The notes beneath the pieces were generated by a model. The model saw only the letters and a list, made by a program, of their open reading frames with translations. It made no database searches and was not told the DNA's origin. This document shows positions 10,958-61,508 of a stretch of 64,000 bases of DNA, one piece after another. The DNA is from Thermoplasmata archaeon (GTDB taxonomy: Archaea > Thermoplasmatota > Thermoplasmata > Lutacidiplasmatales > UBA184), in the NCBI GenBank assembly GCA_021823345.1, contig JAKAOF010000001.1, positions 26,062 to 90,061 on the forward strand, read 5' to 3'. The translations under genes were made by a program, and so were the position numbers. The number at the start of each line of letters is the position of its first letter. Within the stretch, counting starts at the first letter, position 1.

Positions 10958-11584
10958 CTAGAAGGCCACGCCGTGCACCGGCGGGTTGGGATCGGTCTGG
11001 GACCGCAAGAAGACCGTCGAGTCGGGAGAGGCCGCCGAACGGTTCAACGATCCGATCGATTGTTGGAGGAGTTCATAGGCCGCCGAAGTCTCAGGGTTGG
11101 CCGAATCCGTCGGGCCCCGGTGGTAGATCTGGAGCCGGTTCCCTTCCATCACCAATGCGAGGCGTTCCGGGGTCGATTCCGAGGTCCACAGGAGCGTGGT
11201 CCGTTCTCCCTCTTCGAACGAGCCCACCCAGCGGAAGCGACCGAACCAGCGGCCCGCCATCGACCCCAGGACCCGGTTCGAATCCGTGACGTGCGTCAGC
11301 CGGAGTTCCGCCTGGGGCCGCTCGCCCCGGGCGGGGAAGTGTAAGGTCGAAGCTCCCTCCGCCGGGAGGAAGCTCCGCTCGGGGATCCGGTAGCCCATGT
11401 CGCTTCGCTCGACGTGCCCTTCCTTCTCCAGTCGGTGCAGGGTCCGGGAGAGGCTCTCCTGGTGAACTCCGAGAGTCCGCCGGAGCCCCGCGAAGGTGAT
11501 TGCACCCGGAAACTCCGACATGAGGTCGAGGACCCGCTGGTCCAGCGGGCCGGAGCCTCCCCACTTAGGACGGGACATGCCCAA
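10958..11584 (-). CDS. winged-helix (ArsR/MarR-like) DNA-binding protein, C-terminal domain unknown
   Basis: N-terminal LDQRVLDLMSEFPGAITFAGLRRTLGVHQESLSRTLHRLEKEGHVER is an HTH. The remaining 130 aa have no recognisable domain. Confidence 0.5.
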   Translation of the reverse strand: MGMSRPKWGGSGPLDQRVLDLMSEFPGAITFAGLRRTLGVHQESLSRTLHRLEKEGHVERSDMGYRIPERSFLPAEGASTLHFPARGERPQAELRLTHVTDSNRVLGSMAGRWFGRFRWVGSFEEGERTTLLWTSESTPERLALVMEGNRLQIYHRGPTDSANPETSAAYELLQQSIGSLNRSAASPDSTVFLRSQTDPNPPVHGVAF

Positions 11585-11749
11585 TCTACCTGGGTCGGGC
11601 GTATTAGTTTTTGCAGGTCCCGGGAGCTACACCCGCGGGAGGGGCCATTTCGGCCCCTGCCCGGGGCCTGGCATCGGGAGCGGCGGGTGGGGTCCCGTTC
11701 CCAGCGGGGCCCCCTTCAGTGCGGATACACCCATCGTTGGTCCTCGGGT

Positions 11750-12013
11750 TCACTCGGAGAAGAGCTTGTCGAGCTTCTGGCGGATCACCCGCTCCTTCTC
11801 CTCGTACTTCCGGCCGCCGTCCCAACGGGCGTTGACGAGTTCGACCAGAAGGGTCGCGACCTGGTCGAGCCAGGGCCCTTCCTCCTTCTCGAACTGGGCC
11901 TTCAGTTTCTCCCGCAGGAGCTCATTGTGCGCCCGGTAGGCGCTCCAGACCCACGGTCCGTAGTTGTTCGCGTTCTCGGTCTCGTATTCGGTCCCACAGC
12001 ATCCCTCGCTCAT
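11750..12013 (-). CDS. hypothetical small protein (87 aa)
   Basis: Internal ATG of ORF 11750..12091 (MSEGCCGTEYE...). Charged helical C-terminal part. Coding status is plausible but unverified. Confidence 0.35.
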   Translation of the reverse strand: MSEGCCGTEYETENANNYGPWVWSAYRAHNELLREKLKAQFEKEEGPWLDQVATLLVELVNARWDGGRKYEEKERVIRQKLDKLFSE

Positions 12014-12600
12014 GTTCGTTCCCTTCGAGTCGCCTCGATCAACCCAAGGCCTGCGGGGGGTTGTTGACGGGCATCGTGAACATCCGGTCACATCGCTTCG
12101 ACGGCCGTGACCTGGACTTCCGGTGTGCCCCGGCCCAAACGGAACGCTTCACGGTAGTGCACGGAACGTGCCTCTCCACTTCTTGACCTGGCCGGGGCTG
12201 TTGGACCCCGGGGTTGTCCTCGCTTCATCCCGCCGGGCGACCCGCCCGTGTTTCTGGTCAGGAGGGACCACTTCTCGGAGTTCAGGCTCCGCGTTGGCGA
12301 AGCCAACAGGGTTGACGCCGTGCATGCGTATAAGCGTCGTGGACACCTTAGGAGGGGTAGGGTCGGGTCAGGGCGATGATCCGCTCGGGGGATTCCCTGG
12401 TCCTAAACCGAGCTTCCCCGGTCCGGGGTTCGGTTCGATCTCCGCTCGTTCGCGCCCTCCGGTGGCCCGCTCCGGGGAGCTTGGAATTTTCCGTTCTTGT
12501 CAAATAACCACCGAAGACTTCGAATGACACGTCATAGCAAACAGAATACTCATATACTCGAGGCGGAATTTCGCCCTGTAATACATGGGGGCCTCCATAG

Positions 12601-14196
12601 ATGCCTGAAGTGGTACTCACCTGCGACTGGACGATGATGAGTAACCACAACGGCAAGGAGTTCTTGGGCTTCGGGACGACTACCCCGGCCCTGGTCCTTC
12701 CGGAAGCGGCCTATCGGCGTCTCTTTTATCCCGAAATGAAGACCGACGCGGACGGCCATCCTCAGATGGCGCCGTACGGCCTTCGGAAGGTCGAGGCGTC
12801 CCTCATCGACGGGGGGTTCGACGCCCGGATCATCCATCCCAGCTTCCTGAGCCGCTACATGCCGGGGGAGGCCAAGGTGCTCCTCATCTCCGGTCACGAT
12901 TACCTCGCGCTCAACCCGCCCTCGACGACCTTCGCGGGGATCATGAAGAAGGAGCCCCTGAATCGGGTCAACTTCATGCGGATGATGCGCCAGCCGCACG
13001 TGGTCGAGGCGCGCCGACGCGGGATGAAGATCATCGCCGGGGGACCCTGCGCCTGGCAGCTTTCGCCCGTGACCCGGCAGAAGCTCGGATGGATCGACGA
13101 GTTCGTCCGGGAGATCGGGGGCATCGACACGGTGGTGGAGGGCGAGGCGGACCTGTACGTCCGGGAGATCGTGGGGAAGGCACTTCGCGGAGAACCCCTT
13201 CCAGAGCACGTCATCATTCCCCCGAAAGAAGCGCCCAAGGTGGAGCAGATCTCCACGATGCGCTATGCCTCGGTCAACGGTCTTACGGAGATCGGGCGCG
13301 GCTGCTGCCGCGGTTGTTCCTTCTGCTCCGTCACCCAGCGGCCCACCCGGTGGTATCCGCTCGAGAAGATCGAAGCGGAGCTCGCGATCAACAGGTCGGT
13401 CGGGATCACCGACGGGTTGCTCCACTCCGACGATGTCCTGTTCTACGGCTCGCCGAACATCATGCCCCGGGAAGAGAAGATCCTGCCCCTGATGCAGATG
13501 GCGAAGAAGTACTACGAGCATGTGGGCTGGAGCCATGTCGCAGTGGCGACCCTCATGACGAAGCCCAACCTTTTGCCCAAGATCCACGACATCCTGTGCA
13601 CGGGGTCCCAGTCCTGGTGGGGCGTCGAGATCGGGATGGAAACGGGAAGCCCCCGGCTCATCACGAAGGCCATGCCGGGCAAGGTGGCCCCGTTCCGGGC
13701 GAGCCAGTGGCCCGAGCTCGTGGTGCAGGCCGCGGGACTCCTGAACGACAACTCGGTCTATCCGGCATGCACGTTCATCGTGGGGTTGCCGCAGGAGACC
13801 GAGGAAGATGTCATTAAGACCATCGACCTTTTCGACGATCTATGGGACTTCAAAGCGATCCTGGTCCCGATGTTCTTCGTGCCGCTCGGCCACCTGGAGA
13901 AGAAGGACTGGTTCAAGCGCGACATGGTCACCGAGCGACAAAAGGAGCTCATGACCCGGGCGCTCTCGCACGGGATCCGCCAGTCCCGAGACCTGCTCAA
14001 CGTGTTCTTCGAGAACAAGGAAGGATTCTCCGGACGTGCGTACCGCACGGCCTTTGCGAGCTTCATCGGCTTCATCGAATTCATCGCACGGGAGAAGGGC
14101 CTCATGAGTGAACCCAAGCGGGACTCCCGGACTCCCATCGAGAGCCCCCTGTTACACCCCGAACGGATCCCCTTGCCGACCATCCCGGTCCGATAG
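12601..14196 (+). CDS. radical SAM protein with N-terminal B12-binding-like domain (archaeal family; Tes/MJ0865-like candidates)
   Basis: 531 aa. GCCRGCSFCS gives the CxxxCxxC radical-SAM cluster motif at about aa 235. The N-terminal 230 aa resemble the cobalamin-binding-like domain of archaeal rSAM families. Confidence 0.7.
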   Translation: MPEVVLTCDWTMMSNHNGKEFLGFGTTTPALVLPEAAYRRLFYPEMKTDADGHPQMAPYGLRKVEASLIDGGFDARIIHPSFLSRYMPGEAKVLLISGHDYLALNPPSTTFAGIMKKEPLNRVNFMRMMRQPHVVEARRRGMKIIAGGPCAWQLSPVTRQKLGWIDEFVREIGGIDTVVEGEADLYVREIVGKALRGEPLPEHVIIPPKEAPKVEQISTMRYASVNGLTEIGRGCCRGCSFCSVTQRPTRWYPLEKIEAELAINRSVGITDGLLHSDDVLFYGSPNIMPREEKILPLMQMAKKYYEHVGWSHVAVATLMTKPNLLPKIHDILCTGSQSWWGVEIGMETGSPRLITKAMPGKVAPFRASQWPELVVQAAGLLNDNSVYPACTFIVGLPQETEEDVIKTIDLFDDLWDFKAILVPMFFVPLGHLEKKDWFKRDMVTERQKELMTRALSHGIRQSRDLLNVFFENKEGFSGRAYRTAFASFIGFIEFIAREKGLMSEPKRDSRTPIESPLLHPERIPLPTIPVR

Positions 14197-14199
14197 AGG

Positions 14200-15504
14200 T
14201 TGGACATGGGAACCCCACCAACTCAACAGATCCCGCTCGCCGACTTCCTGCCCACCCTCCCGCACATCCGGATGGTCGAGGAGAAGGTCGATCCGCACTT
14301 GGGCATCTCCCGGGAGCTGCTCCGGACCCCGAACGAGGCGGTCTGGTTCCGCGGGTTCCGGAACCCGAGCGTGGTCGGGAACCTGTGGCCCACCCGGGAA
14401 TCCGTGGCCCAGTGCTACGGCGCCACCCCGGCGGAGCTCACGGAGATCTTACTCTCGGCCATCGAACACCCGGTCGCTCCGGCCCTCGGAGTGACGAGGG
14501 TCAGCTGGAGAGAACAGGAGACGAAGTCCGGGCTGGGCTCCTGGCCCGTCCCCCATTTCTTTCCCCGGGACGCCGGCCCCTACCTCACGGCCGCCGTCTA
14601 CTCCGCCACCTGGAAGGGAAAGCGCAATCTGTCGTATCATCGGTTGTGGGTGCGCGGCGACAGTGGCGGGCCCATGCGGCTCGTTCCTCGTCATCTCGAC
14701 CGGATGGTCCGGGAGGCCCGAAACGCGCGGGTCGAACTTCCCGTGGCCCTCATCCTCGGAGCTCCGATCGACGTGCTGCTGGCCGCCGCCTGCTCGACCG
14801 ACTACGCTGTCGACGAGATGGAGATCGCATCGGCGCTGCACCAGCGGCGCACGGGATCCCCTCTTTCGGTCTTCGAACTTCCGAATGGGATCCGAGTGCC
14901 GGCACAGGCCGAGATCATCCTCGAGGGCCGGATCACGCTCCGGGATGAGGAGGAGGGACCTTTCCTCGACATCCTGGGCACCTACGATGCCCGGCGGGTC
15001 CAGCCGGTCGTGCAGATCGACACGGTGCACACGGTGAAGAGCCCGGTCCTCCACGCCATCCTCCCCGGCTCGAACGAGCACTTCCTCCTGATGGGACTTC
15101 CCCGGGAGCCGCTGATCCTTCGGGCCGTGCGTTCCGTGGTCCCCGGGGTCAAGTGCGTCCGCTTGACCGAAGGGGGTTGCGGATGGCTCAACGGGGTGGT
15201 CTCCATCGAGAAGCGCCGCGAGGGCGATGGGAAGAATGCCATCATGGCGGCCTTCTCCGGACATTTCTCGATGAAGCATGTCACCGTGGTGGATGCCGAC
15301 ATCGATGTCTTCAACGACCGCGAGGTAGAATGGGCGGTGGCGACCCGGCTCCAGGCGGACAAGGGGCTCATCGTAGTGCCCGGCGCGACCGGGAGCAGTC
15401 TCGACCCGAGCGCTACCAAGGAAGGGGTGACGACCAAGTGGGGGATCGACGCCACGCTTCCGGTGAACGCCCCCCGCGAGCCCTTCGAGAAGGGTCATCT
15501 CTAA
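14200..15504 (+). CDS. UbiD-family (prenylated-FMN dependent) decarboxylase
   Basis: 434 aa. Conserved UbiD blocks (YHRLWVRGDSGGPMRL, LILGAPIDVLLAAA, FLDILGTYD). Starts 3 nt after the rSAM stop. Confidence 0.8.
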   Translation: MDMGTPPTQQIPLADFLPTLPHIRMVEEKVDPHLGISRELLRTPNEAVWFRGFRNPSVVGNLWPTRESVAQCYGATPAELTEILLSAIEHPVAPALGVTRVSWREQETKSGLGSWPVPHFFPRDAGPYLTAAVYSATWKGKRNLSYHRLWVRGDSGGPMRLVPRHLDRMVREARNARVELPVALILGAPIDVLLAAACSTDYAVDEMEIASALHQRRTGSPLSVFELPNGIRVPAQAEIILEGRITLRDEEEGPFLDILGTYDARRVQPVVQIDTVHTVKSPVLHAILPGSNEHFLLMGLPREPLILRAVRSVVPGVKCVRLTEGGCGWLNGVVSIEKRREGDGKNAIMAAFSGHFSMKHVTVVDADIDVFNDREVEWAVATRLQADKGLIVVPGATGSSLDPSATKEGVTTKWGIDATLPVNAPREPFEKGHL

Positions 15505-15561
15505 CCTGCCGGCAGCAGCCGTCGGGCGTGCGGGCGACATGCGAAGATAGGTCCGAACGTC

Positions 15562-16485
15562 ATGCATCCCAGAACCCGGTCTCTCGCCATCGTGGCGCTG
15601 GCCGCCTCGCTCTGGGGAGTCTCGGGAACGGTGGCCCAGGCCCTCTTCGCCCAGTACGGGTTCCCGCCGCTCGGACTCGTCACGCTGCGCATGCTCTTCT
15701 CGGGAGTCCTGTTGCTCGTGATATTGCGCCCTCGATTTCCCCGACAGCATGTCGGACGTCTGATCGTCTTCTCCGTACTGGGTCTGCTCGCGGTGCAGGC
15801 GACGTACTTCCTGGCGATCGCCAACTCGAACTCTCCGACCGCGACGTTGCTCCAGAGCCTGTCGCTGCCGATGATGGCCGCGTTCGAGGGGATCCGGTCG
15901 ATGGAGGGTCGCAACTCCCGGCTGGGGATCTCGGTCTCCCTCGCGGTCGCCGGAACGCTGCTGCTGACCCTCGGGCAGGTGCGGGCCAGTCTGGCGCTGA
16001 CCCCGCTCGGGCTCCTGTTCGGACTCCTCTCAGCGGCCAGCGCAGCCTACTACACGCTGGACTCCCGGACGCTCACGCAGAACGAGGACGCCTGGTCCGT
16101 GACCGGTTGGGGGATGCTGATCGGGGGAATTGTCAGCCTTCCGCTCGGTACGCCCTCACTGATCGCCTACTTTGGCCACGGTCCGATCGCCGACCCGTGG
16201 ACCGTGATGGGGTGGGTGCTCTTCGTGCTCATCGCGGGAACCCTCCTTCCCTTCGGGCTCTACCTGCAGGGTCGCCGGGGGATCTCCGGGACCGAAGCTG
16301 GAGTGGGGGGCGTCATGGAACCGGTCTCGGCCAGCATCGTGGCGTTCGTCTTTCTCGGGGTCGTCCTGACCCCGCTTCAGTATCTCGGAGGGATCCTGGT
16401 GCTGCTGGCCGTCATCCTTCTCTCGCAGGCTAGCGTCTCCCGGAACGCAGCGAAGAACGGGGCTAGTCCACCACGGTCAACGTGA
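15562..16485 (+). CDS. EamA/DMT-family transporter (10 TMS)
   Basis: 307 aa, two EamA repeats, hydrophobic throughout. Confidence 0.8.
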   Translation: MHPRTRSLAIVALAASLWGVSGTVAQALFAQYGFPPLGLVTLRMLFSGVLLLVILRPRFPRQHVGRLIVFSVLGLLAVQATYFLAIANSNSPTATLLQSLSLPMMAAFEGIRSMEGRNSRLGISVSLAVAGTLLLTLGQVRASLALTPLGLLFGLLSAASAAYYTLDSRTLTQNEDAWSVTGWGMLIGGIVSLPLGTPSLIAYFGHGPIADPWTVMGWVLFVLIAGTLLPFGLYLQGRRGISGTEAGVGGVMEPVSASIVAFVFLGVVLTPLQYLGGILVLLAVILLSQASVSRNAAKNGASPPRST

Positions 16486-16900
16486 CCTCTACGCCGAGAT
16501 TGCTGTAGGCCCGCCAGTTGTACTCTCCAAAGGGGCGGCCCACGATGATGTGGATGCGTCCCCAGTGCCGGAAGAGCGTGAGGTCCGCATCTGAGGGATG
16601 GAGGGCCCCCGAGGGGTGCGAATGTACCGTGCCGACCACCGTGAGGTCGACCGGAAGCATGTAGAGCTGGAAGTTCGCGTGGCGTCGTCCCGCGGTCGTT
16701 CCGGGGATGAGCAAGAGGTCGGTGACCGTCTCGGCTTCTTCGGAGCGCAGGATCGCTCCGAGCTCGTTCGGAAACGTGGAGGCTCCTCCGGCAAGGATGC
16801 TCTCGAGCACGGAACGACGGATCTTGCGGATCGTGTGGGTCGAGAGGTGGGACGGAGCGTTGGGATCCTTCTTCCGCCGTTTCGGGCGGAACATCGGCAT
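16463..16900 (-). CDS. JAMM/MPN+ metalloprotease domain protein
   Basis: HSHPSGALHPSDAD is an HxHx7Sx2D JAMM motif. 145 aa with a basic N-terminal tail. Confidence 0.7.
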   Translation of the reverse strand: MPMFRPKRRKKDPNAPSHLSTHTIRKIRRSVLESILAGGASTFPNELGAILRSEEAETVTDLLLIPGTTAGRRHANFQLYMLPVDLTVVGTVHSHPSGALHPSDADLTLFRHWGRIHIIVGRPFGEYNWRAYSNLGVEVTLTVVD

Positions 16901-16908
16901 CGCGCTGC

Positions 16909-17817
16909 CTACGGCCCATCCCAGGAGAGGATGGACCGGACCCGGAGCCGTTGAAAGAACTCGGTCGAGAAACGGACCAGCGAGGTCCTCCGCGGAGACT
17001 TGAACACCTTGAGCTCGACCCCTTCGCCGAGCTCTACCTCATGGTAACCATCCACGACCGCGATGGTACTCCGGGGGCGCCCCACGAGGCGGATCGTAAC
17101 CTCTTTCAACGGGCCCACGACCAAGGGACGGCCCGCGGAGGCAAAGGGGGCGATGGCGGTCACCAGGATGGCATCGACCGTGGGGTCCACCACCGGTCCG
17201 CCGGCGCTGAGAGCGTAGGAGGTGGAACCGGTCGGGGTCGAAAGGATGATCCCGTCGGCGCGGAGCCGGCCCACCGGGCGACTGTCGATGAGGATCTCGA
17301 AGGCGCGCATCCGGGCCACGTCCTTCACATGCACGACCACGTCGTTCAGGGCATCGGGCAGGCGCTCCTCCCAGATGGAGGTGGAAAGCATCATGCGCTG
17401 CTCCAGGAAGTACTTTCCACTGAGCAGGCGCTCCACGGCACCCTCGAGCTCCGCACCGTTCGGATCGACCTCGGAAAGGAAACCGACCCCTCCGGTGTTG
17501 ATACCGAGGATGGGGGCTTCCACGGCCTGAGCCGAGTAGAACAAGCAGCCGTCTCCTCCCACGGCGATCAGGACGTCACCGTCAAACTCTCGGAGGGGGC
17601 GACCGGGAAGTCCCAACGCCCGCGCGGTATCGTCCGCCACAAAAAGCTCGCAGCGGCCCTCCAGCAGGCCATGTACGACTCGGGCGATCGAGAGTGCCTT
17701 GGGTCGGTCCGGACTCGCCGTGATCCCGATCCGCACCGGGGGTTCCGGGTGTTCGTCGCCCAGCTTCACCAGTTGCCCTCCCGTTTTCCTTCTTCGTAGA
17801 GCTCGCGGCTCCCCCAC
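16909..17817 (-). CDS. nadK: NAD+ kinase
   Basis: GGDG motif (IAVGGDGCLF), NTGGVGFL, and the C-terminal DGxx..ST.TGSTAYS. An alternative GTG start at 17736 would remove the overlap with the IMPase gene. Confidence 0.9.
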   Translation of the reverse strand: MGEPRALRRRKTGGQLVKLGDEHPEPPVRIGITASPDRPKALSIARVVHGLLEGRCELFVADDTARALGLPGRPLREFDGDVLIAVGGDGCLFYSAQAVEAPILGINTGGVGFLSEVDPNGAELEGAVERLLSGKYFLEQRMMLSTSIWEERLPDALNDVVVHVKDVARMRAFEILIDSRPVGRLRADGIILSTPTGSTSYALSAGGPVVDPTVDAILVTAIAPFASAGRPLVVGPLKEVTIRLVGRPRSTIAVVDGYHEVELGEGVELKVFKSPRRTSLVRFSTEFFQRLRVRSILSWDGP

Positions 17818-18533
17818 GCGAGCACGGAGGTGCGTTCCTTGAGCGAGAGGGGGAGATCGAGCGGGGAACCGTCCGTGGAAAGCGCGTCGCCGCCTGCCTC
17901 CCGGAGGATCAAGAGGGCCGCCGCAATGTCGGTCACGCGTAGGTTGGCCTGCTGCATCCGGCTCTCGGAAAAGTAGAGGTCGCCGCTGCCGCGGGCGACG
18001 AGCGACATCTCGAGCGATGCGCAGCCGAGCGACCGGGTCCGCCGTGCCCGGGATGTCAGGGCCCGAGCCTTGTCGGAGGAGTTGTGGTTCAGGTTGAGAA
18101 AGAACAGGTCGGCCCCTCGGCGCCAGCTACGCGTGGTGATCTTGCGCCCCTCGTAGTACGCCCCGTCGCCCTTCGAGGCCCAATAGGTCTTGCCCGACAT
18201 GATGTCGTGGACCACGGCGACGTTGACATCGGCGAGCGACTTCGTGCCCAGGGCGAGGGAAACGGTTCCTAGCGGGAGGCCACACAGGACGTTGTAGCTG
18301 CCGTCGATCGGGTCCAGGGCGAGCACTCGGTCGCCTCCGCGCTCGACGTAACCGAGCTCCTCGGAGAGCAAGTTCCAGTCGAGCTTCTCCTGCTCCAGAA
18401 ACGAAAGCACTTGGGCCTCCGCGACCCGGTCGACCTCCTCGGTCGGGCTGCCACTTGCCCCAATGGAGACCACCCGGTGGGGGTGGGGGGACATCCGTTC
18501 TTGGACGGTACCCCGTTCGACCATGTGGGCCAT
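17766..18533 (-). CDS. suhB: inositol-monophosphatase/FBPase family phosphatase (possible NADP phosphatase)
   Basis: LALDPIDGSYN and WGSRELYEEG-type motifs. I trim to the internal ATG 18533 (255 aa). The track ORF extends to 18752. Confidence 0.8.
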   Translation of the reverse strand: MAHMVERGTVQERMSPHPHRVVSIGASGSPTEEVDRVAEAQVLSFLEQEKLDWNLLSEELGYVERGGDRVLALDPIDGSYNVLCGLPLGTVSLALGTKSLADVNVAVVHDIMSGKTYWASKGDGAYYEGRKITTRSWRRGADLFFLNLNHNSSDKARALTSRARRTRSLGCASLEMSLVARGSGDLYFSESRMQQANLRVTDIAAALLILREAGGDALSTDGSPLDLPLSLKERTSVLAWGSRELYEEGKREGNW

Positions 18534-18680
18534 CCGGACGAGGAGGTCCAGTTCCTTGGGACGGGTGATCGCCACGAGTGCACGCTTCCGGAAGGTCCGG
18601 GCCGCTGAGAAACCCCAAGCAAAGATAAGCTCCGCCCTGCGGGGGCGGTGGGGCCTGAACCCCCGTCCGAGGGTATGGAA

Positions 18681-18706
18681 AACTATATATCTAACCGCTA
18701 ATATAC
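18681..18706 (+). promoter_or_regulatory. AT-rich TATA region (aactatatatct...taatatac) upstream of hsp20
   Basis: The only AT-rich patch in a GC-rich intergenic region, 18–40 nt upstream of ATG 18724. It contains a second copy of the taatatac octamer. Confidence 0.45.
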
Positions 18707-18723
18707 TTTTGTTGGTTTTTACC

Positions 18724-19269
18724 ATGCCCGCAAAGAAGAACCCTCGCACCAAGCGCTCGACTGGAACGACCCTAGCGCCGACCGGGACCCCGGCAGCGGT
18801 ACCCGCGCTCTACACCCCGCAAGCGGATCTGCAGCGGATGTTGCAGGCCATGAACCAGCGGTTCTCCGAGGTCTTTGGGATCGAGCCCTTCGTCGGGCTC
18901 CCCTCCCTGGACTTCCAGTTCCCCTCCCTCGCTGCGGGAGTGCGTCCCGTCTTCTCGGATGTCGTGGATCGGGGGGACCACTACGAGATCCGTTCGGACC
19001 TTCCCGGCGTGAGCAAGGAGAACATCAATGTCTCCCTTCATGGCACGAGGGTGGAGATCACCGCCGAGACCAAGAGCGAAACGTCGACCGGGACGGAAGG
19101 CGCGGCGTATCGGGAACGGTCCCAAGGCACCTACTACCGGGCGTTCGATCTTGACGAGGACCTCAACTCGGACAAGGTCGAGGCCACGTTCGTGGATGGC
19201 GTGCTAACTCTGACCCTCCCGAAGAAGCACCCGGTTTCCCCCGAGAGCCGCCGGATCCCGGTCCGATAG
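18724..19269 (+). CDS. hsp20: small heat shock protein Hsp20/alpha-crystallin
   Basis: ACD motifs (YEIRSDLPGVSKENINV, FVDGVLTLTLPK). Internal ATG of ORF 18463..19269. Confidence 0.9.
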   Translation: MPAKKNPRTKRSTGTTLAPTGTPAAVPALYTPQADLQRMLQAMNQRFSEVFGIEPFVGLPSLDFQFPSLAAGVRPVFSDVVDRGDHYEIRSDLPGVSKENINVSLHGTRVEITAETKSETSTGTEGAAYRERSQGTYYRAFDLDEDLNSDKVEATFVDGVLTLTLPKKHPVSPESRRIPVR

Positions 19270-45654: not shown

Positions 45655-48600
45655 CTATGCGCCGGAAGTGTCCCCCGGGGGGTCCTTCGGTCCGTTGCCG
45701 GACTTGCCTTTCTTCTTGAGCCAATTCTCGAGCTCTCGCGTGATGTCCTCCACGGAGTCCGGGGACCGGGCGGCGCCCCCGGGCTGCGGGGGGCGGCTGT
45801 CCTCCGGTCCACTCCCTCCCGCACCGGGTGCCGGGGGTTTCGGGGCTTCGGACCTCGGACCCTGGTTCGTCCGAGCAACGTTCGCCGAAGCCGCCCCGTC
45901 GCTGGGGCGGGTGGAGGTCGGACCCGGATGCCGGGGTCCCTCGGTAGGAACGGTCGAGGACTCGGGGGCAGGCTCGACCTTTCGCGGTTCCCGGCTTCCG
46001 GGAACGATCTCGTAACCGCAGCGTTCGCACACGAGGTCGCTCGTCACCCTTCCTCCACAAAGCACGCACGAGAGCGGGGCGTAGCTGGTGGGGGTGGTCG
46101 GTGGTGGGGAAGGAGGAAGGGTCGCCGCGGGCGGCGGGGGAATACCTTGCGCAGAGGCACCCTCTCCGTGCATGGACGTGAGCGGCATACCGGCGGACAA
46201 GCCCTCGCTGGGAGCTGCGACGGCGGTCGGCGCATCCGTCGCTCCGGGTGGCTCTCTCACTCCCGTGTTCTCGGCGCGGTTCGACGCACCGGACCGGGCG
46301 CGACGACGCCGCAGGATCAAGATTCCGACGGCAACGATCGCACCGAGGATCGCGATCACTAGAAGATAGGGGAGATACTCCGAAATCACGGAGGGGGCTT
46401 TGTTGGGTGGAGATGATGGGGACTGGACCAGCACATGCACCGTCGCGGTGGTAGCGATCGTTCCCCGAGCATCCCGCACGTCCGCCTGGAAGGAGTAATT
46501 CCCCGGGTAATCGAGCGAGAGCGCCCACTGACTCGCATCGGGGGCCTTGGTATCGTTCGTCCCGTTGAGCAACCAGACGTACTGATAGGGGGCTTGGCCA
46601 CCCTGGAGGAGGATCGTCAGTTCAAAGCCTTCACCCGTGGTCACGGAGGTCCGGTTGGCGGAGAGCGCGACGGCGAGCGGGGGGATCGCGGGATGGACAT
46701 CGAGGGTCGTGGCGGCCGTGGTCGACTGGCCGAAGGGGTCGGTGGCCAGGATCGAGACGTTGTACATCCCCGCGCTCGAGGGGACGCACGTCAGGTGGCT
46801 CGCATTGGTGGAGGTGCATCCCGACGGGAGGCCCGAGTAGTGGTACGTATAGGGAAGGTCTCCGCCGGTCACCTGGACCGAGAGATTCGTGCCCTGGCCC
46901 AGGGTAAGATTGCTCGGAAGCGCCTGGAATGACAGGACCTTGAGCGCGGGAGGGGCCACGCCCACCAGGTCGCTGGGGGACATGGTGTGGACCGCTGGAA
47001 TCCCGACCGAAGAATCCGAGACGGAGTAGCAATAGTAGGTCGCGGAGGTCGGGGTGACATTGAGGTCCATCCCGTGGGCGCTCGCCACCAGGCTGTCCAA
47101 CCCACAGTTCGACTGGGCACCGGAGTACCACGCGAGGAGGTACGGGGGTGACCCGCCCAGGGGGCTGGCCTTCAGGAGGAGCGACTGGCCGATCGAGATC
47201 GTGGGGTTCCCGGGAGTGATGCTCCCTGCGCCGAGCGCCGGGCGGACCGTCACGATCGACCAGTTGGAGGCGACCACGGCCGGAGTGCTCGCATGGTCCG
47301 TTACGAGGTAGCAGAATTTCGCGGTGGTCGTGGGGGCGACGGTGAGGTGGGTCGAATTGCTGTTCGCCACCATGGTCCCATTGCTGCACGAGGACGGTGA
47401 CCCGCTGCTCTCGTACCATTGGAGCGACCATGGGAGGGTGCCTCCGGAGGGGGTCGCGGTCAGGTTCAAGGACTGACCCACATCGATCGACGAGTTCCCC
47501 GGAGACGGCCCGGCGGCACGTAGCGCGGGGTTGACCGTGACCAGGGACCAGGATGAATCTACGACCGACGGGGTCGTGGCACTGTCGCTGACGATGTAGC
47601 AAAAGTACGCGGTGCCCGACAGCGCCCCGGTCCACGACGCCCCGGTCGCGCCCGAAACGGGGGCCCCGGAACTACAAGGTATGGTGTTCTGCGAGCTCGA
47701 GTACCACTGGAACGAGTAGGGCAAGGTCCCTCCGGTGGGCGCCGACGAGAGGCGGACGGACTGCCCGATATCGATGGCGACGGAGGTGGGAGAAGGCGGA
47801 CCCGCAAGCAGGCTCGAGTTCACCACGGCCCACGCGGTCGGAGACTGCGACCCGGCCGAGGGACTTCCCAAGGAACTGTCCCCGACAAAGTAGCAGTAGT
47901 ATCGCGTGGCATTGAGGAGGACGGTGTAGTTCCACGCGGTTGCGCCCGTAATGACGGAATCACTTGCACAGGAGGATGAGTTGCCCGAGAACCATTGGTA
48001 GGAGTAGGGGGGGGCTCCACCGGATACGTTGGAGGAAAGGTGGAGCAGTTGTCCCGCGTCCACCTTGCCGGTCGGGGGGATCGGCGTGTTCGCCGACAGC
48101 ACCGGGTACACTTTCACCGTATCCAACGTGGAACTGCTACTCGCCCCGGCCAAGTCGGTCACGGTGTAACAGTAGGAGGTGTTCGTCGTCGGTGCGACGG
48201 ACAGGCTCGTGCCGGTCGCACCCGAGACCACGGAGTTACTGGAACAGGACGAGAGGTTCCCGGTGTACCACTGGTACGTATAGGGGGAGGTCCCTCCCGA
48301 GATGCTGACCGAGAGGGCGATGGACTGGCCGGAGTCGATCGCCGGCGTACCCGGGGTCGCGGGTCCGGCCGCCACGGGCGCGATGGTCGATCCATAGGAT
48401 GCGGTCGGCATCACGCCATTGGGGGGGTAGGCATGGACGCGCGCCCACTGCAAGGAAATGCTCGCGGTGGACAAGCTGGCGGCGACCAGGGCATAGCTCA
48501 CGTACTCGGCACTGGGAAGCGCATAGGTGGTGCTTGTCCCCGCGTACGCCACGTAATTCTCGTACCACGTCTGACTCCCCGTGGCGGTCCACGCTCCCCC

Positions 48601-49527
48601 CATGATCCCGGGGGCCAGTTGGATCGCCGGGGCCACCGGAGAAACCCCGATGGTAATGGATCCGACCCCCACGCTGCACGTGCAGCCGCCGGCATCATCG
48701 TCCAAGGTGTACCCCCCCGAGGTGCTGGAGCTCCCGTTCTGGAGGAAGAGGCCCGGATAGGGCCCCGTGACCGCCGTGACGTCGGCGTCGAAGATGATGG
48801 GGGGGGCAAAGCCCGTGGCCCAGGTGAGTCCGCCCACCGCCGCGCAACAGATCGTGAGCCCGTTGTTTTGGGTGATCGTGGGCCCCGAGACCACCACGTA
48901 ACCGGAGGAGACCGTGGTCCCGGCGAAATCATCGTAGAAATCAAAGACGGTCGCGCCGTCATCGAATGCGGCATAGGTAGCGGACAGTTGCGGCGCTTCT
49001 CCGATCGGGCCCGCGCTCGATAGCAGAAAACAAGTTGTCGGGGCGAAGTCCATCCCGACCTGGACGGTGCCGAGGGCAGGGATCGACGCCAGCCGTAGCC
49101 AGACCACGGTGCTGGTGCTCGTGTTGGTGGCTCCCGACTCGATCCAGGCCGGGATCAAGCCGCCGGAGGACAACCGGAATTCGACATTGGACCAGTTGGA
49201 GTTGATGTAGCGGGCGAAGGTCGCGGAATCGATCGTCAGTTGCTCTTGGAATGGGGAGGGGGTCGGGGCGGACTGGGAGTTCGTGATCGTGATCGGCGTC
49301 TCCTCCACCACCGGGCATGTCGACAACGGCCGAGCGTCTCGTACTTCGAACGTTCGTGTCGGTGCTCCACCGAGCGAAGGCCCTGGGCCGGCAATATCCG
49401 CGGTCGCGGCGTGCGGCGATGGCGCCGGAATATCCCACCAGGCCATGGGCGCCACGATGAGAAGGGGGGCAAGGACGATCGCCGCGCAAAGGAGAGGGAC
49501 AAGATAGGGGGTACGAACGGCGGTCAT
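45655..49527 (-). CDS. large N-glycosylated cell-surface protein: signal/TM, DUF2341-like domain, about 8 SprB/Ig-like repeats, C-terminal TM, cytoplasmic Pro-rich tail with zinc ribbon
   Basis: 1290 aa. Repeats of about 90 aa carry GGxxPYxYxW...C...GATG...YCY. More than 25 NxS/T sequons. TM YLPYLLVIAILGAIVAVGILIL, then RRRRAR. Tail ends in CVLCGG...CERCG. Confidence 0.8.
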   Translation of the reverse strand: MTAVRTPYLVPLLCAAIVLAPLLIVAPMAWWDIPAPSPHAATADIAGPGPSLGGAPTRTFEVRDARPLSTCPVVEETPITITNSQSAPTPSPFQEQLTIDSATFARYINSNWSNVEFRLSSGGLIPAWIESGATNTSTSTVVWLRLASIPALGTVQVGMDFAPTTCFLLSSAGPIGEAPQLSATYAAFDDGATVFDFYDDFAGTTVSSGYVVVSGPTITQNNGLTICCAAVGGLTWATGFAPPIIFDADVTAVTGPYPGLFLQNGSSSTSGGYTLDDDAGGCTCSVGVGSITIGVSPVAPAIQLAPGIMGGAWTATGSQTWYENYVAYAGTSTTYALPSAEYVSYALVAASLSTASISLQWARVHAYPPNGVMPTASYGSTIAPVAAGPATPGTPAIDSGQSIALSVSISGGTSPYTYQWYTGNLSSCSSNSVVSGATGTSLSVAPTTNTSYCYTVTDLAGASSSSTLDTVKVYPVLSANTPIPPTGKVDAGQLLHLSSNVSGGAPPYSYQWFSGNSSSCASDSVITGATAWNYTVLLNATRYYCYFVGDSSLGSPSAGSQSPTAWAVVNSSLLAGPPSPTSVAIDIGQSVRLSSAPTGGTLPYSFQWYSSSQNTIPCSSGAPVSGATGASWTGALSGTAYFCYIVSDSATTPSVVDSSWSLVTVNPALRAAGPSPGNSSIDVGQSLNLTATPSGGTLPWSLQWYESSGSPSSCSNGTMVANSNSTHLTVAPTTTAKFCYLVTDHASTPAVVASNWSIVTVRPALGAGSITPGNPTISIGQSLLLKASPLGGSPPYLLAWYSGAQSNCGLDSLVASAHGMDLNVTPTSATYYCYSVSDSSVGIPAVHTMSPSDLVGVAPPALKVLSFQALPSNLTLGQGTNLSVQVTGGDLPYTYHYSGLPSGCTSTNASHLTCVPSSAGMYNVSILATDPFGQSTTAATTLDVHPAIPPLAVALSANRTSVTTGEGFELTILLQGGQAPYQYVWLLNGTNDTKAPDASQWALSLDYPGNYSFQADVRDARGTIATTATVHVLVQSPSSPPNKAPSVISEYLPYLLVIAILGAIVAVGILILRRRRARSGASNRAENTGVREPPGATDAPTAVAAPSEGLSAGMPLTSMHGEGASAQGIPPPPAATLPPSPPPTTPTSYAPLSCVLCGGRVTSDLVCERCGYEIVPGSREPRKVEPAPESSTVPTEGPRHPGPTSTRPSDGAASANVARTNQGPRSEAPKPPAPGAGGSGPEDSRPPQPGGAARSPDSVEDITRELENWLKKKGKSGNGPKDPPGDTSGA
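46420..48360 (-). repeat. tandem protein-coding repeats (~270 nt units) encoding SprB/Ig-like modules
   Basis: About 7–8 repeat units, visible in translation at aa ~390–1035 of the surface protein. Confidence 0.6.
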
Positions 49528-56791: not shown

Positions 56792-58807
56792 ATGACCGAG
56801 CTCGACGAACTCTGCGTCAACACGCTCCGATTCCTCTCCGTGGACATGGTCGAGAAGGCGAAGTCCGGACATCCGGGGCTTCCGCTCGGAGCCGCTCCGA
56901 TGGCCTATGCCCTTTGGGACGGATTCCTTCGGCACAATCCCGGCAATCCCCAGTGGGCGAACCGGGATCGGTTCGTGCTTTCGGCGGGCCACGGCTCGGC
57001 GCTGCTCTACTCCCTGCTCTTCGCCACCGGATACGACCTCTCGATCGAGGACCTTCGTCAGTTCCGCCAGGTCGGTAGCAAGACGCCCGGACACCCGGAG
57101 TACCGGCACACGCCGGGGGTCGAGGCGACCACGGGTCCCTTGGGGCAAGGGTTCGCCATGGGGGTCGGGATGGCCATCGCCGAGGCCAGCCTTGCCTCCC
57201 GGTTCAACCGGGACGGGTTCCCGGTCGTCAACCATCACACGTACGGGATCGTGTCCGACGGGGATCTCATGGAAGGGATCGCCTCGGAAGCCGCATCCCT
57301 GGCCGGGCGGTTGCGGCTCGGGAAGCTGATTTACCTCTACGACGACAACCACGTTTCGCTCGAAGGGCAGACTCAGCTCTCCTTCACGGAGAACGTGGTC
57401 GAGCGCTTCCGCGCGTACGGTTGGAGCTGCATCGAGGTTCCGGACGGGAACGATCTGGGTGCGATCGCCGCTGCGATCTCCCGGGCGATCCAGGAAGGTA
57501 ACGCCCCGACCCTCATCGCCGTGCGCACCCATATCGGCTACGGGAGCCCGAGGCAGGACACCAAGGACGCCCACGGCGAACCGCTGGGGGCGGAGAACAC
57601 GCGACTGACCAAGCAGAAGTTGGGGTGGCCGACCGAGCCCCCGTTCCTCGTACCCGCGGAGGCCCTCCAACACCTGCGCCAAGCGCGCGAGCGGGGTGCT
57701 CGTCAGGAGAGCGAGTGGAACGAACTCTTCCAGGCCTATCACGTCGCCCACCCGGACCTGGCGAAGGAGCTCGACCGGATGCTCCGGGGGGAGCGTCCCG
57801 CGGGCTGGGAGAACTCGCTCCCGGATTTCTCGAAGGAAACCTCTCCCCTGGCGACCCGCGAGGCATCCGAACGGGTCTTGAACGCGCTCACCCCGGTGCT
57901 TGCGGAGATCGTGGGCGGTTCCGCGGATCTCGCCCCCTCGACCAAGACGCTCATGCGGGACGCCGGGTCCTTCCTCGCCGCCTCCTCGACCGGGCGTAAC
58001 CTACACTTCGGGGTACGGGAGAACGCGATGGCCGCGATGGTGAACGGCATGGCGCTGCATGGGGGTCTGTACCCCTATGGGGCCACCTTCCTCGTGTTCT
58101 CCGACTATGCGCGGCCCGCGCTTCGACTCGCTGCCCTGATGCGGACCCGGTCCCTGTTCATCTTCACGCACGACAGCATCTGGGTGGGCGAGGACGGACC
58201 CACGCACCAGCCGATCGAGCACGTCGCCAGCCTGCGGACCATCCCGGGCCTCACGGTCATTCGTCCCGGCGATGCCAATGAAGTGTCGGCCGCCTGGAAG
58301 GTGGCGGTCGAGCAGTCCGGCCCGGTCGTTTTCGCCCTCACCCGGCAGAAGCTTCCCATCCTGAAGGAGGTGGCCGGGCGTGCCATGGAGGGGGTCGGAC
58401 GCGGAGCCTACATCGTCTCGGACTCGGATCGAGAGGTCCCTCGGGTCGTCCTCATCGCGACCGGTTCTGAACTTCCCCTGGCGCTCGAGGCGAAGCAAAA
58501 GCTCGCCGAAGCGGGACACGGGGTTCGGGTGGTCTCCATGCCTTCCTGGGAGCTCTTCGAGCGGCAGGATTCGGTTTACCGCAAGTCGATCCTTCCGGAC
58601 TCTGTGCCGCGGGTCTCGGTGGAGGCCGGGACCACGTTCGGTTGGTCGCGCTACGTCGGGGACACGGGGCTCTCGATCGGGATCGACCGGTTCGGGATCT
58701 CAGGGCCGGGCCCGGGAGTTGCCTTAGCCCTTGGCCTCACCGCGGACCGGGTGGTGGAGACGGTGCGCTCGATCTTGCAGGGGTCGCGGGGCGCCGGCTC
58801 CTCGTAA
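56792..58807 (+). CDS. tkt: transketolase (full-length, bacterial type)
   Basis: 671 aa with TPP-binding N-terminal domain ([15 protein letters not shown]), Pyr and C-terminal domains in one polypeptide. Confidence 0.95.
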
Positions 58808-59198
58808 GAGGGTCGCGTCCCGATACCTTCCCCCATCAATTTTCCTGATCGATCTTCCAGGTTCCGTACGGAAAAATCGTACTAAGGTATACGCGGGTTC
58901 GGAAACGCTTCGGCCCACTCTTGAGGTCGACGCACCATGTCCTTTGGTGAACGTGCGACGGGTGAGGTCCAGTCTCCCTATCCCCCACCACGAGCCGATC
59001 GAACGGCATAGGGAGGGCTCTCTACCGCCTACTTATGTTGGACGTTGCCTTACCGAAGTCGATGCAAGCCCCACTTGCAGCTTCAGCCGTTGAAACCTGC
59101 CGGCAATCGGTCCGCGCAGTCCCGCTCGTTTCGGCACGACCCCGGTCCTTCTCGAGGATGGTCCAGGAGCCCGAGGGGTTCCGGGAGTAGGGTTCTTC

Positions 59199-61497: not shown

Positions 61498-61508
61498 GAG
61501 GCAGTACT

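What the first reader, a model, noticed from the sequence alone, without database searches (positions are those of the whole stretch)
12601..16485. Radical SAM (B12-binding-like N-domain) gene tightly coupled to a UbiD-family decarboxylase and an EamA transporter
The rSAM stop and UbiD start are 3 nt apart, so they are likely co-transcribed and co-translated, and a 10-TMS exporter follows. This pairing of a cobalamin-type radical SAM enzyme with a prFMN-dependent (de)carboxylase is not a textbook pathway. Candidates include an archaeal lipid-modifying rSAM (Tes/GDGT-type families are annotated this way) or an unknown aromatic/isoprenoid modification route. The UbiD partner UbiX is not in the window.
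Basis: partly seen in the sequence, partly recalled or inferred. Interest (0 to 1): 0.6.

Follow-up and report, generated by a model that had tools for sequence, protein, structure and literature searches.

The report
Lipid ring-synthase-like gene beside UbiD decarboxylase
In one group of soil Thermoplasmata archaea, a radical SAM gene related to the enzymes that put rings into archaeal membrane lipids was joined into an operon with a UbiD decarboxylase that looks like the archaeal mevalonate-pathway enzyme; this is a lineage-specific gene arrangement, not evidence for a new pathway.

Summary
Three co-directional genes are real: a radical SAM gene (12601-14196), a UbiD gene (ATG at 14206, 9 nt after the stop rather than 3, to 15504) and an EamA gene (15562-16485). 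The only AT-rich promoter-like dip lies upstream of the first gene.

The rSAM is neither Tes nor a methylthiotransferase. It belongs to the GDGT ring synthase (grs) family: it is 35% identical (E 3e-91) to the Methanopyrus kandleri reference Grs homologue, and it has the same layout (Rossmann-like N-domain, one CX3CX2C cluster, C-terminal helices, no auxiliary cluster). The two characterised enzymes, GrsA and GrsB, could not be compared directly.

The closest relatives of the UbiD outside its own clade (~50% identity) are the Methanomassiliicoccales UbiDs, one of which NCBI names trans-anhydromevalonate-5-phosphate decarboxylase.

The rSAM-UbiD adjacency occurs in 12 of 14 loci of one clade. 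It is absent from 35 loci of the sister clade and from 35 loci of other archaeal lineages. EamA is a later addition. No UbiX is in the window.

The likeliest reading is a single insertion that co-expresses isoprenoid supply with lipid-tail modification. Interest is low to moderate.

The parts
12500..12600 (+). Putative promoter and 5' leader of the operon. It contains a TATA-like CATATACT at 12551-12558 and a G-run at 12587-12591 before the ATG.
   Evidence: This is the only AT-rich dip in 11500-17000 (GC 0.45 against ~0.65). The sequence was read. The promoter assignment is an inference.
12601..14196 (+). Radical SAM protein of 531 aa, a member of the GDGT ring synthase (grs) family. It has a Rossmann-like N-domain (~1-205), a partial TIM barrel with C235-x3-C239-x2-C242, and two long C-terminal helices (445-469 and 475-498). 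The second helix is amphipathic and rich in aromatic residues.
   Evidence: PF04055. Only three invariant Cys in 47 homologues. AF2 model with pLDDT 91.3. Fold matches to MgmA, MiaB, AprD4, TsrM and TokK at TM ~0.5. 35% identity and E 3e-91 to the M. kandleri reference Grs homologue WP_148679813.1. C-terminal helix aromatic fraction 19% against 9.6% for the whole protein.
14194..14205 (+). Junction between the rSAM and the UbiD. The rSAM stop TAG (14194-14196) overlaps GAGG (14195-14198), which sits 7 nt before the UbiD ATG at 14206. An alternative TTG lies at 14200.
   Evidence: Sequence read. P0241, identical to the window UbiD, starts at the ATG.
14206..15504 (+). UbiD-family (prFMN-dependent) decarboxylase of 432 aa. 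[quoted passage not shown]
   Evidence: PF01977, PF20696 and PF20695; TIGR00148 at 304 bits. Best PDB sequence hit is HmfF 6h6v, E 5e-74. Own clade is 59-76% identical, and the next hits are ~50% identical Methanomassiliicoccales proteins, including the NCBI-named AMPD P0261. 99 of 116 outgroup-conserved columns are kept, including the EGPFxD catalytic loop.
15562..16485 (+). EamA/DMT-family transporter of 307 aa. It is a late addition to the operon, found only in the closest relatives.
   Evidence: PF00892 twice, and TIGR00950 at 118 bits, below its cutoff of 230. 9-10 hydrophobic segments. Present in L001 and L081-L084. Absent in L085, L086 and L089. MscL occupies that position in L087 and L088.

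Best explanation
The three genes form a lineage-specific operon made of parts with separate histories.

(1) The radical SAM enzyme belongs to the GDGT ring synthase (grs) family. It is expected to use one [4Fe-4S]/SAM site to abstract hydrogen from the saturated biphytanyl tails of tetraether membrane lipids. The most likely product is a cyclopentane ring, as for GrsA and GrsB. Its amphipathic, aromatic-rich C-terminal helix could hold it at the membrane surface.

[quoted passage not shown] AMPD uses prFMN made by an unlinked UbiX to produce isopentenyl phosphate.

(3) EamA is a transporter inserted later, with no demonstrable link to the other two.

The UbiD gene was inserted once, between the grs-like gene and the convergent JAB-NAD kinase-IMPase block, in the ancestor of one Thermoplasmata clade. 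It has since been inherited as a translationally tight pair. The pairing would co-express isoprenoid precursor supply with lipid-tail modification. The two enzymes are not proposed to share a substrate.

Shown: the gene structure, the family memberships and the phylogenetic distribution of the adjacency. Inferred: ring-synthase chemistry, AMPD activity, co-transcription and membrane association.
For: Gene reality and operon layout.

Grs-family membership:
- A profile of the window family retrieves a continuum of ~500-aa full-length homologues from 1.84 billion representatives. 255 score E<=1e-30, and nearly all of the full-length ones listed carry a CxxxCxxC, mostly near residue 225.
- The representative P0372 (E 1.8e-132) belongs to the M. 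kandleri cluster that holds WP_148679813.1.
- That protein is one of the 35 reference Grs homologues in Table S1 of Blum et al., bioRxiv 10.1101/2022.08.15.504015. It is 34.5% identical to GrsA and 33.8% to GrsB.
- The window protein is 35% identical to it over 466 aa, E 3e-91.
- The architecture matches the published description of the GrsA/GrsB models: Rossmann-like N-domain, partial TIM barrel with CX3CX2C, C-terminal helix, no auxiliary cluster (PMC13459092).
- The taxonomic spread of the close family matches the reported GrsA/GrsB-clade spread (PMC8473941). It covers hyperthermophilic Thermoproteota, Bathyarchaeia and mesophilic Thermoplasmata.

UbiD:
- The nearest relatives outside its own clade are the Methanomassiliicoccales UbiDs at 48-53% identity, one of which NCBI names AMPD.
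- The core motifs are conserved.

Single insertion:
- The neighbour-joining tree of the rSAM places all 12 UbiD-linked loci in one clade, with two secondary losses (L002, L003).
- The 35-locus sister clade has JAB 77-227 nt after the rSAM.
- 35 distant loci have no UbiD within 6 kb.
- 7 of 7 sampled UbiD-clade members sit directly after the rSAM, while both outer flanks vary.
Against: - Placement in the grs family is therefore transitive, through one reference homologue.
- The close relatives of the Metallosphaera javensis family member (54-84% identity) include no S. acidocaldarius, S. solfataricus or M. sedula protein. The window clade is therefore not a strict orthologue of the two characterised enzymes.
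- Related B12-type rSAMs that act on archaeal lipids (Gmm, Cgm, Ted) carry out other chemistries, namely methylation and desaturation. Many grs homologues also have no assigned role.
- No AMPD reference sequence or model was available. NCBIfam has none, and the best solved relative is HmfF.
- The UbiD clade has fixed substitutions relative to the outgroup, one of them inside the catalytic loop: R314G, N337R, T257L, V412W. Its substrate may differ.
- It is not known whether genomes of this clade carry the rest of the archaeal mevalonate pathway, a UbiX, or a second UbiD.
- The pair stays intact while both outer flanks change. This could reflect selection for a functional link that I do not propose.
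Confidence: 0.5

Rival explanations
1. The grs-like rSAM and the UbiD act in one previously undescribed pathway. An example would be a (de)carboxylation coupled to radical modification of an isoprenoid, lipid or quinone intermediate, with EamA exporting a product.
For: - The rSAM-UbiD junction is tight, from a 4-nt overlap to +19 nt in most loci.
- It is kept in 12 of 14 loci of the clade, while the gene upstream of the rSAM and the gene downstream of UbiD change repeatedly.
- Every sampled member of this UbiD clade sits next to the rSAM (7 of 7).
- The UbiD clade carries fixed substitutions in and near the catalytic loop relative to AMPD-like relatives.
Against: - The rSAM family occurs without any nearby UbiD in the sister clade (35 loci) and in 35 loci of other phyla.
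- Two loci inside the clade have lost UbiD but kept the rSAM (L002, L003).
- The convergent JAB-NADK-IMPase block is equally well conserved, so local synteny is generally stable here.
- EamA is restricted to one subclade.
- No UbiX or other pathway gene is present in the window.
Confidence: 0.1
2. The UbiD is not AMPD but an aromatic or heteroaromatic acid (de)carboxylase of the HmfF type. It arrived, later joined by the EamA transporter, as a small detoxification or catabolic cassette that landed downstream of an unrelated lipid gene.
For: - The best solved relative is the furandicarboxylate decarboxylase HmfF (E 5e-74), followed by the indole-3-carboxylate decarboxylase AnInD.
- In the closest subclade a DMT-family carboxylate/amino acid/amine-type transporter follows it.
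- The sister clade appears to lack this UbiD. Only ~18 clusters share >=59% identity, against ~70 clusters for the rSAM.
- The clade has specific active-site substitutions.
Against: - No AMPD structure was among the PDB hits, so HmfF as best hit carries little information.
- The nearest sequence relatives are the Methanomassiliicoccales UbiDs (48-53%), not bacterial HmfF. 99 of 116 of their conserved columns are retained.
- EamA is absent from most of the clade.
Confidence: 0.2
3. The rSAM is a grs-family paralogue with a different chemistry on archaeal lipids, such as methylation, desaturation, cyclohexane ring formation or cross-linking. The link to UbiD is still only co-expression.
For: - Related B12-type rSAMs on archaeal lipids do methylation (Gmm, Cgm) and desaturation (Ted).
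- Many genomes carry extra grs homologues with unexplained function.
- The window clade is not a strict orthologue of the characterised GrsA or GrsB.
Against: - The only characterised members of the grs family itself are ring synthases.
- The characterised methylases and the desaturase belong to the Gmm-like B12-rSAM family, not to grs.
- The window protein gives no PF02310 hit.
Confidence: 0.15
4. The rSAM is a housekeeping methylthiotransferase (MiaB/RimO/MtaB type) or another RNA- or protein-modifying enzyme.
For: - Weak NCBIfam hits to MiaB/RimO models (E 2.6e-7 to 1e-4).
- MiaB and RimO appear among the fold matches.
- The gene lies among information-processing genes in several lineages.
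Against: - Scores are far below cutoff (30 bits against 251).
- There is no conserved N-terminal Cys triad for an auxiliary cluster.
- There is no TRAM domain. The C-terminus is helical.
Confidence: 0.03

Closest known systems
[quoted passage not shown]
   Same: The length is about 500 aa. The layout is a Rossmann-like N-domain, a partial TIM barrel with one CX3CX2C cluster and C-terminal helices, with no auxiliary Fe-S cluster. The window protein is 35% identical to a reference family member (M. kandleri WP_148679813.1). That is the same level at which that member matches GrsA. The distribution covers Thermoproteota, Bathyarchaeia and Thermoplasmata.
   Different: It is not a demonstrable orthologue of either characterised enzyme, and direct identity to GrsA or GrsB could not be measured. 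Activity is untested. In this clade it is fused into an operon with a UbiD gene, which I did not see mentioned for grs genes in the papers consulted.
[quoted passage not shown]
   Same: It is a UbiD-family protein of ~420-430 aa. The window UbiD is 48-53% identical to the Methanomassiliicoccales proteins, one of which NCBI names AMPD. The core motifs are shared, including EGPFxD...GTYD.
   Different: No experimentally characterised AMPD sequence could be compared. The clade has specific substitutions (R314G, N337R, T257L, V412W). The gene sits next to a grs-like gene, unlike in Methanomassiliicoccales.
HmfF (2,5-furandicarboxylate decarboxylase, PDB 6h6v)
   Same: It is the best solved-structure relative of the UbiD (E 5e-74, near full length).
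   Different: It is a bacterial catabolic enzyme. The archaeal AMPD-like proteins are closer in sequence. No furan-catabolic genes are nearby.
Tetraether synthase Tes / GDGT-MAS (PDB 7TOL)
   Same: It is a radical SAM enzyme that acts on archaeal isoprenoid lipid tails.
   Different: Tes has three [4Fe-4S] clusters and a rubredoxin-like domain. The window protein has only three invariant Cys and gives no sequence or fold match to 7TOL.
TIGR04013 (MJ_1487 family) and MgmA (TIGR04014, PDB 9ccb), B12-binding-domain radical SAM proteins of methanogens
   Same: These are the best NCBIfam and PDB matches, with the same two-domain layout.
   Different: Scores are far below the family cutoffs (57-90 bits against 251; 39 against 360). 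Similarity is mainly in the rSAM core.

Membership tests
grs (GDGT ring synthase) family | Radical SAM core with a single CX3CX2C cluster motif | tested here: met
   C235, C239 and C242 are invariant in 47 homologues. PF04055 hit.
grs (GDGT ring synthase) family | N-terminal Rossmann-like (B12-binding-like) domain, C-terminal helix and no auxiliary Fe-S cluster, as described for the GrsA/GrsB models in PMC13459092 | tested here: met
   The AF2 model (pLDDT 91) shows these elements. Fold matches are to Rossmann-plus-TIM rSAMs. The three motif Cys are the only invariant Cys.
grs (GDGT ring synthase) family | Sequence homology to GrsA and GrsB under the Blum et al. criteria: >=70% coverage, >=20% identity and E<=1e-40 to both | tested here: inconclusive
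   The GrsA and GrsB sequences were not obtainable. An indirect test was met: 35% identity, 466 aligned residues and E 3e-91 to the reference homologue WP_148679813.1, which itself meets the criteria.
grs (GDGT ring synthase) family | Orthology to GrsA or GrsB (clade membership) | tested here: inconclusive
   The listed relatives of the M. javensis member (54-84% identity) include no S. acidocaldarius, S. solfataricus or M. sedula protein. A GrsA-like position is inferred only indirectly. Pyrodictium has a family member at 58% identity to M. javensis, and the single Pyrolobus Grs homologue in Table S1 is 48% identical to GrsA.
grs (GDGT ring synthase) family | Cyclopentane ring formation on GDGT | not testable with these tools
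   This needs lipid analysis after heterologous expression or deletion.
Cobalamin-dependent (class B) radical SAM enzymes | Cobalamin-binding domain (PF02310) and bound cobalamin | tested here: inconclusive
   No PF02310 hit at E<=0.01. The N-domain fold resembles those of MgmA, TsrM, TokK and OxsB, but equally those of MiaB, RimO and the B12-independent AprD4. Cofactor binding is not testable here.
Tes / GDGT-MAS tetraether synthase | Additional [4Fe-4S] clusters and a rubredoxin-like domain; homology to 7TOL | tested here: not met
   Only three invariant Cys. 7TOL is absent from the sequence searches at E<=1 and E<=0.01, and from the listed fold matches.
MiaB/RimO/MtaB methylthiotransferases | N-terminal three-Cys auxiliary cluster, C-terminal TRAM domain and a family HMM score above cutoff | tested here: not met
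   TIGR00089 scores 29.8 bits against a cutoff of 251. There are no conserved N-terminal Cys. The C-terminus is helical.
TIGR04013 (MJ_1487 family) | HMM score at or above the 251-bit cutoff | tested here: not met
   57.5 bits for the window protein, and 69-90 bits for relatives.
UbiD family (prFMN-dependent decarboxylases) | UbiD N, Rift-related and C domains; family HMM above cutoff; conserved E...D catalytic loop | tested here: met
   PF01977 E 6.9e-42 and PF20696 E 3.6e-36. TIGR00148 scores 303.7 bits against 244.85. The EGPFLDILGTYD loop is conserved.
AMPD (trans-anhydromevalonate-5-phosphate decarboxylase) | Orthology to a characterised AMPD (A. pernix or M. mazei), and co-occurrence with phosphomevalonate dehydratase, IPK and UbiX | not testable with these tools
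   No reference sequence or HMM is available. Only a 64-kb window of the genome is available. The support is indirect: 48-53% identity to Methanomassiliicoccales UbiDs, one of them named AMPD by NCBI.
EamA / DMT transporters | Two EamA repeats and about 10 TM segments | tested here: met
   PF00892 in two stretches, E 4.5e-28. 9-10 hydrophobic segments. The substrate-specific models are below cutoff (TIGR00950 118 bits against 230).

The most novel reading that the evidence does not exclude
In this Thermoplasmata clade the UbiD has diverged from AMPD (R314G, N337R and T257L in the catalytic loop). It would work together with the grs-like radical SAM enzyme on a shared isoprenoid-derived substrate. 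An example is a decarboxylation or carboxylation step coupled to radical C-C bond formation. This would give a lipid or quinone modification not yet described in archaea.
Probability: 0.08. Interest if true: 0.7.

Novelty: new member of a known kind. Interest (0 to 1): 0.3.

Why it matters
GDGT ring numbers underlie palaeotemperature and pH proxies such as TEX86. The sources of cyclised GDGTs in soils and peat are poorly constrained. This locus shows that abundant soil and peat Thermoplasmata carry a well-conserved grs-family gene. It also shows that this family forms a large continuum: 255 representatives of 50%-identity clusters score E<=1e-30, and only two members have been characterised. 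The clade-specific operon with an AMPD-like UbiD offers a testable hint that precursor supply and tail modification are co-regulated. It does not open a new kind of pathway. It also corrects a tempting over-reading of a tight gene junction.

Tried and rejected
- Tes/GDGT-MAS identity was rejected. There is no 7TOL match by sequence or fold, and only one cluster motif.
- Methylthiotransferase and MJ_1487/MgmA membership were rejected on scores and missing features.
- I first concluded that the rSAM was an orphan unrelated to Grs, because no S. acidocaldarius protein appeared among close hits. I revised this after the profile search and the M. kandleri anchor.
- I looked for a conserved functional partner in 35 distant loci. 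Only a small MarR/TrmB-like wHTH gene recurs (>=9 loci). It is not significantly related to the window's divergent MarR, beyond a generic wHTH resemblance.
- I looked for a glyoxalase remnant in the 509-nt upstream spacer and found none. Rfam found nothing in the window.
- I tried to obtain the GrsA and GrsB sequences or more cultured anchors:
  - Zeng et al. 2019 (PMC6842593) is not held.
  - The supplements give accession numbers only.
  - 30 cluster look-ups gave M. kandleri as the only cultured anchor.
- The afdb50 fold library was unavailable.
- I tried to learn whether the sister clade has the UbiD elsewhere. The Thermoplasmata-labelled hit P0300 turned out to share Methanomassiliicoccales synteny.
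- The UbiD literature held here gave no AMPD structural or motif information.

Full report
**Observation.** The window is a 65% GC archaeal chromosome fragment. It carries RpoL, ABCE1, Tpt1 and topoisomerase VI, and its close relatives are all Thermoplasmata MAGs.
- Their third-position GC is 0.83-0.86.
- The first is a radical SAM protein (PF04055) with C235-x3-C239-x2-C242.
- The second is a complete UbiD-family protein (PF20695, PF01977, PF20696; TIGR00148 at 304 bits against a cutoff of 245).
- The third has two EamA repeats and 9-10 hydrophobic segments.

The stated 3-nt gap depends on a TTG start at 14200. An identical database protein and the other gene calls start at the ATG at 14206. 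That ATG lies 7 nt after a GAGG that overlaps the rSAM stop codon, so the gap is 9 nt.

The only AT-rich dip in 11500-17000 lies at 12500-12600, just upstream of the rSAM (GC 0.45). The two internal junctions stay at 65-68% GC. This fits one transcript. None of the ~48 window ORFs scanned has a UbiX (flavoprotein) domain.

**What the rSAM is.** It has no NCBIfam model. The best hits are TIGR04013 (57 bits against 251), MgmA and MiaB/RimO, all far below cutoff. The best PDB sequence match is MgmA 9ccb, limited to the rSAM core. Tes (7TOL) is not matched.

An alignment of 47 homologues has three invariant cysteines, all in the SAM-cluster motif. There is therefore no auxiliary cluster. An AlphaFold2 model (pLDDT 91.3) shows a Rossmann-like N-domain, a partial TIM barrel and two long C-terminal helices. 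The fold matches (TM ~0.5) are the two-domain rSAMs MgmA, MiaB, AprD4, TsrM, RimO, CysS, TokK and OxsB. The last helix is amphipathic, and its aromatic content is double the protein average. This is compatible with an interfacial membrane anchor, but it is not proof.

The close family (44-60% identity across phyla) occurs in the following groups:
- Thermoplasmata, including DHVE2;
- Bathyarchaeia and Nezhaarchaeota;
- Desulfurococcales, Pyrodictium and Thermofilaceae;
- Thermoproteaceae and Caldarchaeales;
- some Sulfolobales.

A profile search of 1.84 billion cluster representatives found 255 with E<=1e-30. They form a continuum of ~500-aa full-length homologues. Nearly all of the full-length ones listed carry a CxxxCxxC, mostly near residue 225, and the ~40 N-termini inspected share a '(V)(V)LTADRTLMSNY'-like motif.

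One representative (E 1.8e-132) belongs to the Methanopyrus kandleri cluster that contains WP_148679813.1. That accession is one of the 35 reference Grs homologues in Table S1 of Blum et al. (bioRxiv 10.1101/2022.08.15.504015). There it is 34.5% identical (E 5e-92) to S. acidocaldarius GrsA and 33.8% identical to GrsB. The window protein is 35% identical to it over 466 residues, E 3e-91.

The architecture also matches the published description of the GrsA and GrsB models (PMC13459092). I therefore place the protein in the grs (GDGT ring synthase) family.

It is not a strict orthologue of the two characterised enzymes. No S. acidocaldarius, S. solfataricus or M. sedula protein appears among the listed relatives (54-84% identity) of the Metallosphaera javensis member. 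An indirect argument suggests proximity to the GrsA-type clade. Pyrodictium carries a family member, and the only Pyrolobus homologue in Table S1 is 48% identical to GrsA.

**What the UbiD is.** The best solved relative is HmfF (E 5e-74). No AMPD structure was among the PDB hits for comparison. In the protein database the gene has a small clade of its own (~18 clusters, 59-76% identity). The next hits are ~50% identical Methanomassiliicoccales proteins of ~420 aa, one of which NCBI names trans-anhydromevalonate 5-phosphate decarboxylase. That protein has the same NCBIfam profile as the window UbiD, so no dedicated AMPD model exists.

The window clade keeps 99 of the 116 columns that are >=95% conserved in the outgroup, including the EGPFxD...GTYD catalytic loop. 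It also has fixed differences: R314G, N337R, T257L, V412W and I155G/A156P. AMPD is the UbiD-type enzyme of the archaeal mevalonate pathway, which dominates in archaea. Thermoplasmatota also contain lineages that use the haloarchaeal-type or Thermoplasma-type routes (PMC11052028). The AMPD assignment is an inference.

**Is the pairing conserved?** Among 80 genomic loci that hold the rSAM family, tblastn found the UbiD next to it in only three. Approached from the UbiD side, 7 of 7 sampled members of its clade lie directly downstream of the rSAM. The junction runs from a 4-nt overlap to +19 nt, and once to +96 nt. In each case the pair sits upstream of a convergent JAB-NAD kinase-IMPase block.

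A neighbour-joining tree of the rSAM resolves two sister clades.
- The window clade has 12 loci with the UbiD and two without (L002, with JAB 25 nt after the rSAM; and L003, which is rearranged).
- The sister clade has 35 loci with no UbiD and with JAB 77-227 nt after the rSAM.

The 35 more distant loci have no UbiD within 6 kb, and no other widely conserved neighbour except a small wHTH gene. The Methanomassiliicoccales UbiD genes have no rSAM nearby. EamA is present only in the closest subclade. MscL or nothing occupies that position elsewhere.

The most parsimonious history is a single insertion of the UbiD between the grs-like gene and the JAB block, followed by vertical inheritance. Two losses and later insertions downstream of the UbiD followed.

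**Interpretation.** However, the adjacency is restricted to one clade, and the rSAM clearly works without the UbiD in most archaea.

The most economical reading is a lineage-specific operon that co-expresses a probable isoprenoid-precursor enzyme with a probable lipid-tail-modifying enzyme. The two share a theme (membrane isoprenoid lipids), not a substrate.

The pair has stayed intact while both outer flanks changed, and the UbiD carries clade-specific substitutions. These two facts keep a genuine functional coupling alive as a minority possibility (about 0.1).

**Verdict.** The rSAM is a new, uncharacterised member of a known family sitting in a clade-specific gene arrangement. Interest is low to moderate.

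Noticed in passing
window 56792-63877 (+): A cluster of transketolase, a PGI-like protein, a HAD hydrolase, a short 6-phosphogluconate dehydrogenase and glucose-6-phosphate dehydrogenase (PF02781, E 2.7e-113). Together these are an oxidative pentose-phosphate set. To my knowledge that pathway is generally regarded as rare in archaea.
   Followed up: no
window 28921-30893 (-): A thiolase-like gene followed by a DUF35/ChsH2 OB-fold gene. This is the pair typical of the archaeal acetoacetyl-CoA thiolase/HMG-CoA synthase complex, but no HMG-CoA synthase gene is adjacent.
   Followed up: no
window 12092-12500: About 400 nt of 65% GC apparently non-coding DNA lies between the divergent 113-aa gene and the rSAM promoter. 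It has no Rfam hit and no credible ORF. The relative L081 carries glyoxalase genes at this position, but no remnant is detectable here.
   Followed up: partly
window 14206-15504 (UbiD residues 155, 156, 257, 314, 337, 412): There are clade-fixed substitutions relative to the Methanomassiliicoccales-type (AMPD-like) UbiDs: R314G, N337R, T257L (inside the EGPFxDI[T/L]GTYD loop), V412W and I155G/A156P. They may indicate an altered substrate pocket.
   Followed up: partly
L052, L054, L065, L067 (Thermoplasmatales MAGs), around the grs-like gene: The gene order is a small MarR/TrmB-like wHTH gene, then an AhbD/NirJ2-like radical SAM/SPASM gene (TIGR04545, 337 bits, below cutoff), then the grs-like gene. 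In L052 and L054 a SAM hydroxide adenosyltransferase (PF01887) follows. The wHTH gene alone precedes the grs-like gene in at least 9 distant loci.
   Followed up: partly
L060 (Bathyarchaeia) and L072 (Nezhaarchaeota): Two grs-family copies lie in tandem or nearly so. This is consistent with the multiple grs copies per genome reported for Thermoproteota.
   Followed up: no
window 16463-18752 (-), and the same block in ~50 related loci: A JAB-domain protein, NAD kinase and inositol-monophosphatase-family gene block lies convergent to the grs-like gene. It is conserved across both Thermoplasmata clades. This shows that local synteny is generally stable here.
   Followed up: partly
window 32400-36839 (-) and 45655-49527 (-): A 1479-aa protein made almost entirely of TPR repeats, and a 1290-aa putative surface protein with SprB and PKD repeats.
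   Followed up: no
L083 2912-4003: In one relative a DDE transposase (PF01609) sits just upstream of the grs-like gene. This shows that the upstream flank of the pair is a site of rearrangement.
   Followed up: no
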